In this document: positions 46,401-49,400 of the stretch, piece after piece
Layout of the letters: every line of letters begins with the position of its first letter
Position numbering within the stretch: the stretch's first letter is position 1
NCBI RefSeq assembly: GCF_055900595.2
Contig: NZ_CM148325.1
Reading direction: 5' to 3' (one strand)
Length of the DNA stretch: 64,000 nt
Position numbers: made by a program

Positions 46401-49400
46401 ACAGTTTGTTGGGACAGGTTTTCGCCATGCTGGAAACGCGTCGGGCATCCGTCATGTATTTTTCAGATCACGGTCTGGAGTATGACCCGACAAAAGAACA
46501 TGCCTATTTTCATGGTGGAATAAAACCCAGTCAGCAGGCTTATCATGTTCCGATGTTTATCTGGTACAGCCCGACACTGGGAGAGCATGTCGATCGCCAG
46601 ACGGTGAACAGCGTTTTTTCCACTGCGTATAATGATTATCTGATTAATGCATGGATGGGCGTAACCAGACCGGCTCAACCGAAAACGCCGGAGGAGGTGA
46701 TTACCCGCTGGCAGGGGAAATCCGTGGTTTTTGATGCCAGTCATAACGTGTTTGACTACAAAGTATTACGAAAGAACTTTAATGAACTCCAGGAATAATT
46801 CGTTAAAGTAATTTACGACTCTATTCTTTTTTAAAGGAAACTTTCAGAAAATGCCCCCAGGGCGATAACCTGGGGAAGGGGGACTGTGTTATTACTGGTG
46901 GATAAATTATTACTTGTTTGAAAGATACACTAATGCAATATCTACTGATGCTGGATGCTTGAGTGTTTCATTCCTGCTGCTGAAAACGGCAATATCCAGG
47001 GCCAGACATATTCACCGTTAATATTTCTGCATTTCTGTACAATTTCCTCAGAAAGTGTCTCATCAATTCTTTCCCGCAACAGCTTCTGCTGTCTTAAAAT
47101 GCTTTCGCATATTTCGAAATCATCTTCCTGCATCAGCATTTCGGCGCATTTAATGATTTCTGCTCGTTCATGCAGCACAGAGGAATGGTTATAGAGCCAG
47201 TTTACAAACAGCAATGCTTCCGGATATTGTCCCCATAATGGTGAGTATGTTGCATAGTAATCTTCTGCCGTATCCAGAGAGCCGGAGAAGTTATGCCGCA
47301 CAGCAAGTGGAAATGGATGCAAATTTCCGCACAGCATTTCCGCGATGTAAGTGTTTGTAGCAAAGCCATGACGAAAAGCTGTGGCAGCCTTAACATGTTC
47401 CCCATTCAGAAAATGCAGAAGACCAAGTTCATACCAGTAAGGTGAAAATTCATCAGCATGCTCTTTCAGTACACTGAAGGCTTGCTTATGATCGCCTGTT
47501 CGTAACAGTTCTGAGCCCAACAACCAGCGGGCACCCTGATTATCTTCAGGATTGTATGCCAGTATTTTATCAGTAAGCATAACCGCATCCTGATGACGCT
47601 GTAAGTGCACATTTGCGAGAATTGCTGCATAAAGTGCGCGCAGATAAGGCCGGTTTTCGGGATGCATCCAGATGATTTCACCACTGAAACTTTCCGGGAT
47701 GAGACGATTACCTGCCGCCAGTCCTTTAAGAGCGGCGTTCAGTGCCTTACGCGGGGCATTCTGCTCCAGAAATGCATATGCCAGATGAGCGTGTATATCA
47801 ATAAAGTCAGGCTCCCGTTGAGCAAGGCGTCTGAGTTTGTTGATATAACTCGTTTCGCTGATTTCATCTGTGTCGTATGCATCAAGCAGTTCTTCAAACT
47901 CACCCAGTAATGGGCCGAACCAGGTTTCCGGAAATACAAAATAACCCAGGTTATCGTGCACTTCAAAGCGTAATCTGTCGTTCATTTTCTGAGCCTGTAA
48001 AACGGATGGGACACAATCTGAAAAGCATAAAAGTTGTGATGTTGTGTATCAAGTCTTGTTTTTGTCCGGGATGAATGTTGTTTACAATATCATCGGCAGT
48101 GGTTTTTCATGAGAATGAAAATTTATCTTTATCTGCATTCCGGTGTATTGTGAATTGTCGGCTGAAACAGCATATTAATCGATTTTTTTAGGGGAATGGT
48201 GCTGAAATAACGACATGATGATGATTTATATTACAGGTATCAAAATTGTTAGCGGTCCATAACGGTGTGATGTTTTGAGATTGTTTACAGATGCAATATT
48301 AAATATTTTGACAAAAAACAAAAAACAAAAAACAAAAAACAAAAAACAAAAAATATCTAAAAATAAAGCATGAAAACAAAATTCCTCCGGACCTGGAGGC
48401 CGGAGGAGAACTTGTGGATTGAGAGAAAATATCAGAACAAGTGTTCTTAACCCTGACTCTCTTGCCTGGAAAGCGAATCAATGTAATCTGCGTACCATTG
48501 CATCATTTCACGGCGACCATCGAGATACTGGGCATGATTATAGGTACCCCTGATGGCGTTTTTATCCACATGAGCTAACTGCATTTCAATCCAGGCAGAA
48601 TTAAAGCCCTGTTCGTGCAGAATGGTACTCATGGTGTGACGAAAACCATGACCGGTTGCCCTGCCATCGTAACCGATACGTTTGAGCACCATATTGATGC
48701 TGGCTTCGCTCATTGGCTTGTTGATATCACAACGTCCCGGGAAAACCAGCCGGTATTGTCCGGAGAAAGTTTTGAGCTGCAGCAGAATGTCAGTGGCCTG
48801 TCGTGACAGTGGTACGACATGTTTACGTCGCATTTTCATGCGGCTTTCAGGGATTGTCCACAGGGCATTATCAAAATCAATTTCTGACCATTCAGCGGAC
48901 CGTAGTTCAATCGTTCTGAGGCCTGTCAGAAGCAGCAGATTTGTCGCCATGCGGGTAACAGGACTGCCATGATACTCAGCGAGCTTCCGGAGAAAAACAG
49001 GGAGCTCATCTGCTCTCAGGTGGGGGAAATGTGCAGCTTTTGGCGCCGCCAGCGTACTGGTCAGTTCAGATGCCGGATTGACAGTGGCTCGTCCGGTGGC
49101 GATGGCATAACGAAAAATCTGATTACAGTATTGACGCACCTTACGAAGTTTTTCCAGCGAGCCACGTTTTTCTATGCGGCGCAGAATTTCCAGCATTTCC
49201 AGCGGGAGGATATCCGTAACGCTTCGTTTGCCCAGATACGGGAAAATATCTTTATCCAGCGCTTCCAGTACGCTTCTGGCGTAACTTTCAGACCATGACA
49301 AAGATTTATGCTGGTGCCATTCCGTAGCGAGGGCATGGAACGTATTGGTGGCAGAGATTTTCTGAGTGAGTTTTTCCTTTCGCTTCTTTTCGCCCGGGTC

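What the first reader, a model, noticed from the sequence alone, without database searches (positions are those of the whole stretch)
48311..48352. Perfect (ACAAAAA)x6 heptanucleotide microsatellite between the integrase and the divergent helical-repeat gene
Six exact tandem heptamers lie ~95 bp downstream of the integrase stop and ~330 bp upstream of the minus-strand 46942-47985 gene. Such tracts change length by slipped-strand mispairing and can alter promoter spacing, DNA curvature or integrase 3-prime regulation.
Basis: seen in the sequence. Interest (0 to 1): 0.35.

Follow-up and report, generated by a model that had tools for sequence, protein, structure and literature searches.

The report
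Variable 7-bp repeat upstream of shiA-like gene
A real, strain-variable 7-base tandem repeat sits in a mobile E. coli genomic island between the integrase terminator and a shiA/sisA-type immune-modulator gene, but the evidence points to an ordinary slippage-generated length polymorphism, not a genetic switch.

Summary
(ACAAAAA)x6 lies at 48311-48352 and is the only perfect tandem array in the 64 kb (43 bp, against at most 21 bp in simulations).

One detail is wrong: the integrase (48447-49637) and the "helical-repeat" gene (46942-47985) are both on the minus strand, so they are tandem, not divergent. The host is phylogroup-B2 E. coli and the island sits at tRNA-Phe (pheV). The downstream gene belongs to the ShiA/SisA family of inflammation suppressors.

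Copy number does vary. Among 231 carrier genomes out of 5,426 complete E. coli, inferred spans give 8 units (2 records), 4 units (11) and 3 units (4). The other 43 of the 60 rows listed are all 2-unit. Draft assemblies add a 5-unit allele. No other sequence found has 6 units.

Variation is slow. Eight apparently clonal isolates all carry 4 units. The common 2-unit allele, GT(CAAAAAA)2T, is invariant in unit number, and every expanded allele has A instead of T at 48311.

The tract lies 31 nt past the integrase terminator and 68 bp and 259 bp upstream of the two promoter-like sites for the shiA-like gene. It is predicted to be straight, not curved.

One lead remains: in the 2-unit allele the tract forms the 17-bp spacer of a weak + strand promoter-like site, which expansion destroys.

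Verdict: an ordinary VNTR, with no regulatory role shown.

The parts
48311..48352 (.). The (ACAAAAA)x6 tandem repeat, which reads (TTTTTGT)6 on the gene strand. It is a variable-number tandem repeat with 2-8 units in related sequences.
48311..48311 (.). Polymorphic base at the left edge of the tract. It is A in every expanded allele (3-8 units) and T in every 2-unit allele. It is the centre of the small palindrome TTTTG-[T/A]-CAAAA.
48383..48407 (-). Intrinsic terminator hairpin of the integrase gene (CCUCCGGCCUCCAGGUCCGGAGG), followed by the U-run AAUUUUGUUUUC at 48371-48382. The tract starts 31 nt after the hairpin.
   Evidence: conserved in all loci aligned
48447..49637 (-). P4-type tyrosine integrase (396 aa as annotated in near-identical genomes). 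The last ~190-200 bp are shared with the otherwise ~72%-identical selC-type integrase.
49814..49889 (-). tRNA-Phe (pheV; neighbours are yqgA and speC), the island's attachment site.
46942..47985 (-). ShiA/SisA-family gene (347 aa, annotated as 'tetratricopeptide repeat protein'). It is the first cargo gene after the integrase and lies 326 bp downstream of the tract.
   Evidence: PMC6174562, PMC13340028, PMC2978726
48024..48052 (-). Promoter-like site P1 (TTGATA-17-TATGCT), about 40 bp upstream of the ATG. It lies inside the only part of the intergenic region that is homologous to the CFT073 sisA upstream region (up to 48080).
48215..48243 (-). Promoter-like site P2 (TTGATA-17-CATCAT). The tract begins 68 bp upstream of its -35 hexamer.
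48308..48364 (+). Split + strand promoter-like element: -35 TTGACA (48308-48313) and -10-like AAAAAT (48359-48364). They are 45 bp apart here but 17 bp apart in the 2-unit allele (TTGTCA-17-AAAAAT). If active it would transcribe antisense into the integrase 3' end.
   Evidence: found in 2-unit L006; absent in 3-unit L005; absent in window. The number of such sites does not exceed chance.
48299..48360 (.). AT-only inverted repeat bracketing the tract (TTAAATATTTT / AAAATATCTAA, 10 of 11 complementary). The arms are 12 nt apart in the 2-unit allele and 40 nt apart here.
   Evidence: I10; flanks conserved
47986..48446 (.). The 461-bp int-shiA-like intergenic region that holds the tract. It is 35.6% GC with the tract removed and differs by ~5% between pheV-type and selC-type modules, against dS of 0.14-0.21 in the adjacent gene.

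Best explanation
The tract is an ordinary variable-number tandem repeat produced by replication slippage in AT-rich spacer DNA of a horizontally mobile island module (P4-type int, then the intergenic region, then a shiA-like gene, then a PEtN transferase gene). This module inserts at pheV, pheU or selC.

The ancestral state is a 2-unit proto-repeat, GT(CAAAAAA)2T, which is essentially fixed. Expansion has occurred on a few backgrounds, always together with a T-to-A change at the left edge. The result is a series of whole-unit alleles (3, 4, 5, 6, 8), and the window's 6-unit allele is a rare member of that series.

Length changes are faster than point substitution but slow on the scale of clonal spread, so the tract behaves as a lineage marker and not as a high-frequency switch. 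It lies after the integrase terminator and well upstream of the likely shiA-like promoter, so it most probably has no effect, or only a marginal one, on either flanking gene.

Shown here: existence, non-random origin, whole-unit polymorphism, position relative to the predicted terminator and promoter-like sites, and identity of the neighbouring genes. Inferred: slippage as the mechanism, near-neutrality, and coupling of the T-to-A change to expansion, for example by mismatch correction of a misaligned repeat heteroduplex.
For: The array is perfect and far beyond chance.

Whole-unit alleles occur on conserved flanks. The window, L004 and L005 have no substitutions in the intergenic region but carry 6, 4 and 3 units. 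L023 (2 units) differs from the window by one SNP in ~3.8 kb apart from the tract and the T/A site.

Census of 231 carriers among 5,426 complete E. coli genomes, ranked so that long alleles come first: 2 records with 8 units, 11 with 4 units, 4 with 3 units, and all 43 other listed rows with 2 units. A 5-unit allele occurs in a draft assembly.

Stability within apparent clones: eight OkiPb017xx isolates all have 4 units, and strains 800 and TL-14 both have 8. The 4-unit allele is shared by E. coli at pheV and pheU and by record CP001120.1.

Position: the tract follows the terminator. It is 68 bp and 259 bp upstream of the promoter-like -35 hexamers. No Rfam family matches the intergenic region and no IHF consensus is present.

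The tract is predicted to be straight, and the observed alleles show no preference among the three helical phase classes.

The paralogous CFT073 int-sisA region lacks the tract and everything beyond 48080, yet sisA is expressed in vivo (PMC2978726).

Published E. coli VNTR work reports whole-unit changes and low, constant mutation rates for alleles of up to 13 units (PMC3777172 abstract).
Against: The intergenic region evolves about 4 times more slowly than synonymous sites of the adjacent gene, so the tract sits in DNA that may be functionally constrained.

The T/A-expansion association is perfect: 33 T-type loci all have 2 units, 13 A-type loci all have 3 or more, on at least 3 flank haplotypes, and no A-type 2-unit or T-type 3-unit allele exists among the 231 carriers. 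Simple independent neutral mutation does not predict this.

In the 2-unit allele the tract is exactly a 17-bp promoter spacer on the + strand.

No expression data or read-level data could be examined. The census rests on span lengths for the records that were not fetched, and 171 of the 231 carrier rows were never displayed.
Confidence: 0.7

Rival explanations
1. The tract is an upstream modulator of the shiA-like gene. Changing its length by 7 bp (about 240 degrees of helical rotation) alters the geometry or extent of an AT-rich nucleoprotein complex, for example H-NS silencing of the island DNA, or the phasing between elements on either side of it. That would tune expression of an immune-modulating factor.
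For: The tract lies 68 bp upstream of promoter-like site P2 and within a conserved, AT-rich intergenic region (28.5% GC at 48200-48399). The downstream gene is in the ShiA/SisA family, which the literature links to suppression of host inflammation. The wedge model predicts that the flank-to-flank angle cycles with a period of 3 units. Repeats upstream of core promoters are known to modulate expression in other bacteria (my own knowledge: the nadA TAAA repeat in Neisseria and the hmw 7-bp repeats in Haemophilus).
Against: The tract is not inside any predicted spacer for this gene. Observed alleles (2, 3, 4, 5, 6, 8) fall in all three phase classes. Every 2-unit allele read has the same unit number and there is no variation within apparent clones. 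The CFT073 sisA paralogue lacks the whole distal intergenic region. No IHF consensus is present. Promoter-like sites do not exceed chance.
Confidence: 0.12
2. The tract is the spacer of a + strand promoter that fires antisense into the integrase 3' end. In the common 2-unit allele the spacing is optimal (17 bp), so the promoter is ON. Any expansion moves the -10 element 24 bp or more away, so it is OFF. This would heritably change antisense control of int, and perhaps island stability. The T-to-A change would make the -35 hexamer a perfect TTGACA.
For: The scanner finds TTGTCA-17-AAAAAT on the + strand in the 2-unit locus L006 but not in the 3-unit L005 or the 6-unit window. The window has TTGACA at 48308-48313 and AAAAAT at 48359-48364, 45 bp apart. 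An A-type 2-unit allele, which would be TTGACA-17-AAAAAT (10 of 12), is never observed among 231 carriers.
Against: The match is only 9 of 12 with a poor -10 hexamer, and the number of such sites in the region equals chance expectation (3 found against 2.1 +/- 1.3). AT-rich horizontally acquired DNA is full of spurious promoter-like sequences (my own knowledge). The spacer is not strictly conserved among 2-unit alleles: single-base A or T deletions give 15-16 bp in L001, L009 and L037. Nothing is known to lie downstream on that strand. The small 26-aa ORF there loses its ATG in selC-type loci. There are no transcript data.
Confidence: 0.1
3. The 6-unit count is an assembly or sequencing artefact of a low-complexity A-rich tract, and there is no true biological length variation.
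For: Some assemblies show single-base A-run errors inside the tract (L016 and L037). The 6-unit allele itself was not found in any other record.
Against: Differences between alleles are exact multiples of 7 bp with perfect units. They are reproduced in many independent assemblies: 4 units in at least 11 complete genomes and several drafts, 3 units in 4 genomes, 8 units in 2. A 42-bp tract is well within the read length of all current platforms.
Confidence: 0.03

Closest known systems
E. coli VNTR loci used for MLVA typing (6-7 bp units, e.g. the O157-specific loci studied in PMC3777172)
   Same: It is a short-unit perfect tandem repeat in E. coli. Alleles differ by whole units on conserved flanks. 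Alleles with few units are slow to change, and the tract works as a lineage marker.
   Different: It is carried on a mobile island module present in only ~4% of complete genomes (231 of 5,426), so it is not a core-genome marker. I found no paper listing this unit sequence as an E. coli VNTR (the search covers only the held library). Most carriers have a non-expanding 2-unit form.
Promoter-associated simple-sequence contingency loci, such as the Haemophilus influenzae hmw1A/hmw2A 7-bp repeats, the Neisseria nadA TAAA repeat and the hif TA spacer repeat (from my own knowledge), and M. tuberculosis promoter tandem repeats (PMC12817950 abstract)
   Same: It is a short tandem repeat with a heptanucleotide unit, lies upstream of a host-interaction gene, and varies in copy number between strains.
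   Different: It is not in the core promoter or spacer of the downstream gene. It has only 2-8 units. No variation is seen among apparently clonal isolates. No expression effect is known. Membership of this class is not supported.
ShiA (Shigella SHI-2) and SisA/SisB (UPEC) loci next to P4-type integrases at selC, pheV and pheU
   Same: The layout is the same: tRNA, then P4-type int, then a 1,044-bp/347-aa gene, then a PEtN transferase gene. The protein is 85% identical to CFT073 SisA. The published sisA forward primer matches the window exactly. The selC form of this module is reported as 99% identical to SHI-2 including shiA (PMC6174562).
   Different: These papers describe the gene, not the repeat. 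The CFT073 int-sisA intergenic region is 255 bp and has no tract.
Phased A-tract curved DNA upstream of bacterial promoters
   Same: It consists of runs of six A separated by a single C in an AT-rich upstream region.
   Different: The period is 7 bp, not ~10.5 bp. The wedge model gives a straight segment (0.996 end-to-end/contour, against 0.639 for the phased control).

Membership tests
Variable-number tandem repeat (slipped-strand microsatellite/minisatellite) | Head-to-tail copies of a short unit, beyond chance | tested here: met
   6.1 perfect copies of a 7-bp unit. It is the only such array in 64 kb, at 43 bp against a maximum of 21 bp in 400 simulations.
Variable-number tandem repeat (slipped-strand microsatellite/minisatellite) | Copy number differs by whole units between related sequences with conserved flanks | tested here: met
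   Alleles of 2, 3, 4, 5, 6 and 8 units were found. Loci with identical intergenic flanks carry 6, 4 and 3 units.
Variable-number tandem repeat (slipped-strand microsatellite/minisatellite) | Length changes arise by replication slippage at a measurable rate | not testable with these tools
   This needs passage experiments or read-level data. It is only inferred from the whole-unit allele series.
Phase-variable contingency locus (SSR-controlled promoter) | The repeat lies within the coding sequence or the core promoter/spacer of the controlled gene | tested here: not met
   For the shiA-like gene, the tract is 68 bp and 259 bp upstream of the two promoter-like -35 hexamers and 326 bp from the ATG. 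It forms a spacer only for a weak + strand promoter-like site in the 2-unit allele, whose reality is unknown.
Phase-variable contingency locus (SSR-controlled promoter) | High-frequency, reversible length variation within clonal populations | tested here: not met
   Eight apparently clonal OkiPb017xx genomes all have 4 units, strains 800 and TL-14 both have 8, and every 2-unit allele read has the same unit number. This is a limited test, because assemblies give consensus sequence only.
Phase-variable contingency locus (SSR-controlled promoter) | Expression of the target gene changes with copy number | not testable with these tools
   No expression data are available for strains with different alleles.
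Intrinsically curved A-tract DNA | A-tracts repeated in phase with the helix (~10-11 bp) | tested here: not met
   The period is 7 bp. The wedge model gives end-to-end/contour of 0.996 and a local bend of 2-4 degrees, against 0.639 and 40 degrees for the phased control.
ShiA/SisA family (identity of the downstream gene) | A ~347-aa protein homologous to SisA/ShiA, encoded as the first gene after a P4-type integrase at selC, pheV or pheU | tested here: met
   It is 85% identical over 347 aa to the CFT073 gene that the published sisA primers amplify. The same layout is seen at pheV, pheU and selC. PMC13340028 equates PGAP's 'tetratricopeptide repeat protein' (1,044 bp) with SisA.
ShiA/SisA family (identity of the downstream gene) | Suppresses host inflammatory response | not testable with these tools
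   This is known only from the literature on Shigella ShiA and UPEC SisA/SisB, as cited.
Integrase arm-type / attachment-site repeats | Repeats flank the recombination core at the tRNA 3' end, on the att side of int | tested here: not met
   The tract is on the far side of the 1.19-kb int gene, about 1.46 kb from the tRNA-Phe gene.

The most novel reading that the evidence does not exclude
The tract is a heritable length switch for a + strand promoter (TTGWCA, tract, AAAAAT) that transcribes antisense into the 3' end of the P4-type integrase gene. The widespread 2-unit allele has the working 17-bp spacing. Expansions such as the window's 6 units silence the promoter. The strict pairing of the T-to-A change (which perfects the -35 hexamer) with expansion reflects selection against a too-strong antisense or spurious promoter. 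This would be a repeat-controlled antisense regulator of island excision or stability in E. coli, a species in which SSR-based switches are rare.
Probability: 0.06. Interest if true: 0.55.

Novelty: new member of a known kind. Interest (0 to 1): 0.27.

Why it matters
As it stands, the tract is a usable length marker for tracing one widely travelling island module (int, shiA-like gene, PEtN transferase). That module moves between the pheV, pheU and selC sites of E. coli, and apparently into Salmonella.

The tract is also a small natural example of how a two-unit proto-repeat becomes an expanding microsatellite only after its edge base changes.

It would matter more if copy number were shown to change expression of the shiA-like immune modulator or of the integrase. 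E. coli is not known to rely on simple-sequence contingency loci, so a repeat-tuned virulence-island gene would be unusual. Nothing found here shows that.

Tried and rejected
1. Promoter-spacer role for the downstream gene. Rejected because the tract is 68 bp and 259 bp upstream of the predicted -35 hexamers.

2. Intrinsic curvature. Rejected by the 7-bp period and the wedge model.

3. Part of the integrase terminator. Rejected because the hairpin and U-run end 18 nt before the tract.

4. Integrase arm or att site. Rejected by position, since the tract is on the far side of int.

5. Recombination junction between island modules. The breakpoint between pheV-type and selC-type modules is at ~48640-48655 inside int, not at the tract.

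6. Known RNA family or sRNA in the intergenic region. Rfam found nothing at E <= 1 apart from the tRNA.

7. IHF site. No consensus match in the intergenic region.

8. Small ORFs. The 13-aa minus-strand ORF spans an indel hotspot, and the 26-aa + strand ORF (48370-48450) loses its ATG in selC-type loci.

9. Metagenome scan with a flank-anchored pattern. It gave only 4 hits, all 2-unit.

10. GTDB species-representative scan with the ShiA-like protein. It gave only one hit, a probably mis-binned contig without the tract pattern.

11. Literature search for the unit sequence. No E. coli VNTR paper turned up.

12. Shigella TSS supplements. No shiA entry.

13. The primary ShiA and SisA papers (PMC1418937, PMC2786477). 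Not held in the library.
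Full report
**Observation**

The window reads (ACAAAAA)x6 at 48311-48352. Tandem Repeats Finder reports period 7, 6.1 copies, 100% matches and score 86, the highest-scoring array in the 64 kb. A direct scan shows it is the only perfect tandem array with a 4-9 bp unit and at least 3 copies in the window. It is 43 bp long, while 200 Markov-1 simulations of the window reached at most 18 bp and 200 simulations using the AT-rich intergenic composition reached at most 21 bp. The tract is therefore real and not a chance feature.

The word "divergent" is wrong, because both genes are on the minus strand.

**Context**

- The core flank 53300-63900 is 100% identical to phylogroup-B2 E. coli such as Nissle 1917.
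- The local order is speC, yqgA, tRNA-Phe (49814-49889, minus), a P4-type integrase (48447-49637, minus), a 461-bp intergenic region containing the tract, a 347-aa TPR-like gene (46942-47985, minus), and a convergent phosphoethanolamine transferase gene (45125-46798, plus). This is the pheV island site.
- The same int, intergenic region and TPR gene module occurs at pheV (yqgA neighbour), at pheU (191-aa neighbour, which I take from memory to be yjdC) and at selC in other strains. About 231-256 of 5,426 complete E. coli genomes carry it.

**The downstream gene belongs to the ShiA/SisA family**

- It is 85% identical over all 347 residues to the gene that follows the pheV integrase in CFT073.
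- The published sisA qPCR primers (PMC2978726) match that CFT073 gene exactly, and the forward primer matches the window gene exactly.
- PMC13340028 states that PGAP's "tetratricopeptide repeat protein" of 1,044 bp corresponds to SisA.
- PMC6174562 reports that the first 2.9 kb of a selC island is 99% identical to Shigella SHI-2 "including shiA".
- ShiA and SisA are described in the literature as suppressors of host inflammation. shiA is induced anaerobically, independently of FNR (PMC4229854).

**Anatomy around the tract, read on the gene (minus) strand**

1. Integrase stop.
2. A GC-rich hairpin at 48383-48407, followed by AAUUUUGUUUUC. This is a typical intrinsic terminator, found by the scanner and as the centroid structure.
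3. Eighteen further nucleotides (31 nt past the hairpin), then (TTTTTGT)6.
4. A conserved AT-rich stretch.
5. Two sigma-70-like sites: P2 at 48243..48215 and P1 at 48052..48024.

The tract is thus 68 bp and 259 bp upstream of the two -35 hexamers and is not inside a spacer for the shiA-like gene.

Only the proximal ~95 bp of the intergenic region (up to 48080, including P1) is homologous to the CFT073 int-sisA region. That region is 255 bp long and has no repeat, yet sisA is expressed during human infection. Rfam finds no RNA family in the intergenic region, and it contains no IHF consensus.

**Copy-number variation**

Direct reading of 46 related loci gives 2, 3, 4, 5, 6 and 8 units.

A synthetic 10-unit query made longer alleles rank first in a search of all complete E. 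coli genomes. Counts below come from the 60 rows displayed out of 231 carriers:

| Units (from span length) | Records | Notes |
|---|---|---|
| 8 | 2 | strains 800 and TL-14, near-identical chromosome sizes |
| 4 | 11 | eight are OkiPb017xx isolates from one source with the same coordinates |
| 3 | 4 | |
| 2 | 43 listed | 171 further rows not shown |

- No other sequence has 6 units.
- Draft assemblies encoding the identical ShiA-like protein add a 5-unit allele and several 4-unit alleles. One of these is record CP001120.1, which I recall as Salmonella Heidelberg SL476.
- The window, L004 and L005 have no substitutions in the intergenic region yet carry 6, 4 and 3 units.
- L023 (2 units) differs from the window by one SNP in ~3.8 kb, apart from the tract and its edge base.

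So length changes outpace point substitution, but clonal sets are uniform and the 4-unit allele has persisted through transfers between sites and hosts. This matches published E. coli VNTR behaviour: whole-unit changes, and low, constant rates for alleles of up to 13 units (PMC3777172 abstract).

**An unexpected regularity**

- Every 2-unit allele reads G-T-(CAAAAAA)2-T (33 loci, on several ShiA haplotypes and all three tRNA sites).
- Every expanded allele reads G-A-(CAAAAAA)n-T, or A-A-(CAAAAAA)8 in the selC 8-unit allele (13 loci including the window, on at least three flank haplotypes).
- Synthetic queries for the two missing classes found no exact match among the 231 carriers. The best hits to both the A-type 2-unit query and the T-type 3-unit query carry one mismatch.

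Independent neutral mutation does not predict this. My inference is that the T acts as an edge interruption, and that expansion and T-to-A conversion are coupled, for example by mismatch correction in a misaligned repeat heteroduplex. This is not shown.

- *Curvature.* A6 tracts every 7 bp are out of helical phase. A Bolshoy-Trifonov wedge model gives a straight tract (end-to-end/contour 0.996, local bend 2-4 degrees), against 0.639 and 40 degrees for a 10-bp-phased control. The angle between the flanks cycles with a period of three units, and the observed alleles fall in all three phase classes.
- *Integrase 3' regulation.* The terminator precedes the tract.
- *Promoter spacing.* Not for the shiA-like gene. 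On the + strand, however, the 2-unit allele forms TTGTCA-17-AAAAAT (9 of 12), with the tract as spacer. This site is absent from a 3-unit locus and from the window, where TTGACA (48308-48313) and AAAAAT (48359-48364) are 45 bp apart. If real, it would transcribe antisense into int. Promoter-like sites in this AT-rich region are no more frequent than chance (3 found against 2.1 +/- 1.3), the -10 hexamer is poor, and single-base deletions change the spacer among 2-unit alleles. I treat it as a lead only.

**Constraint**

Between pheV-type and selC-type modules the intergenic region differs by ~5%, whereas the adjacent gene has dS of 0.14-0.21 (dN/dS 0.15-0.20). The region is therefore either constrained or has a different recombination history. 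Mosaicism is evident: L006 has a 99.8%-identical intergenic region next to a 95%-identical gene. The break between integrase types lies inside int at ~48640-48655, not at the tract.

**Conclusion**

The finding is a genuine, polymorphic heptanucleotide VNTR in the int-shiA-like spacer of a mobile island. The best-supported reading is a slippage-generated and essentially neutral length polymorphism (confidence ~0.7). Upstream modulation of the shiA-like gene (~0.12) and an antisense-promoter spacer switch (~0.10) are unproven alternatives, and an assembly artefact is unlikely (~0.03). It is a new member of a known kind, of modest interest.

Noticed in passing
window 48447-48655 (3' end of int), compared with L002 and L007-L009: The selC-type integrase is only ~72% identical to the window's pheV-type integrase. 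From ~48640-48655 to the stop codon, and on through the intergenic region and the shiA-like gene, identity is 94-100%. This points to a recombination breakpoint inside the integrase gene, so integrases with different site specificities share the last ~65 codons and the same cargo.
   Followed up: partly
window 48183-48194: A second indel hotspot lies in the same intergenic region. The run T7-A-G4 varies in length between loci (for example TTTTTTG--GT, TTTTTTTGGGGGG).
   Followed up: no
L025 (CP001120.1, 4615078-4621121): The int, 4-unit tract, identical ShiA-like protein and PEtN transferase module is present in a 4,888,768-bp chromosome that I recall as Salmonella enterica serovar Heidelberg SL476. 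The protein's cluster also carries Salmonella and 'MULTISPECIES Enterobacteriaceae' names. This implies recent transfer between genera.
   Followed up: partly
L011 (NZ_CP137739.1, plasmid unnamed2, 34177-37449): A tRNA-Phe gene, the integrase and the TPR/ShiA-like gene lie on a 187-kb plasmid record next to IS1. This is either a chromosomal island fragment captured on a plasmid or an assembly problem.
   Followed up: no
L027 (JAIJJM010000323.1, MAG 'Collinsella sp.'): A 3.5-kb contig binned into a Collinsella (Actinobacteria) MAG encodes a protein 94% identical to the E. coli ShiA-like protein. It is most likely a mis-binned enterobacterial contig.
   Followed up: no
window 48370-48450 (+): A 26-aa ORF (MKTKFLRTWRPEENLWIERKYQNKCS) runs through the terminator hairpin, and its stop codon overlaps the integrase stop codon. 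Its ATG is ATA in selC-type loci, so it is probably not a gene.
   Followed up: partly
window 42888-44459 (+): PGAP calls this 523-aa ORF 'cobalamin adenosyltransferase' in near-identical genomes. It has no Pfam hit and only a weak FtsW-like NCBIfam match, so the annotation looks doubtful.
   Followed up: no
window 24000-48000: The island cargo next to this module includes a type I restriction-modification system and a sucrose (scr-type) PTS, porin and hydrolase cluster. The same 24 kb is 99.5% identical in strain JSMCR1, where the exact-protein lookup shows a 191-aa neighbour, suggesting the pheU site and not pheV.
   Followed up: partly
window 53300-63900 compared with L026 (CFT073): The core flank is 100% identical to Nissle 1917-type B2 strains. 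CFT073, which I recall as a related B2 strain, carries a different pheV island with sisA and a different integrase allele (1,266 bp), so the window strain has a different island at the same site.
   Followed up: no
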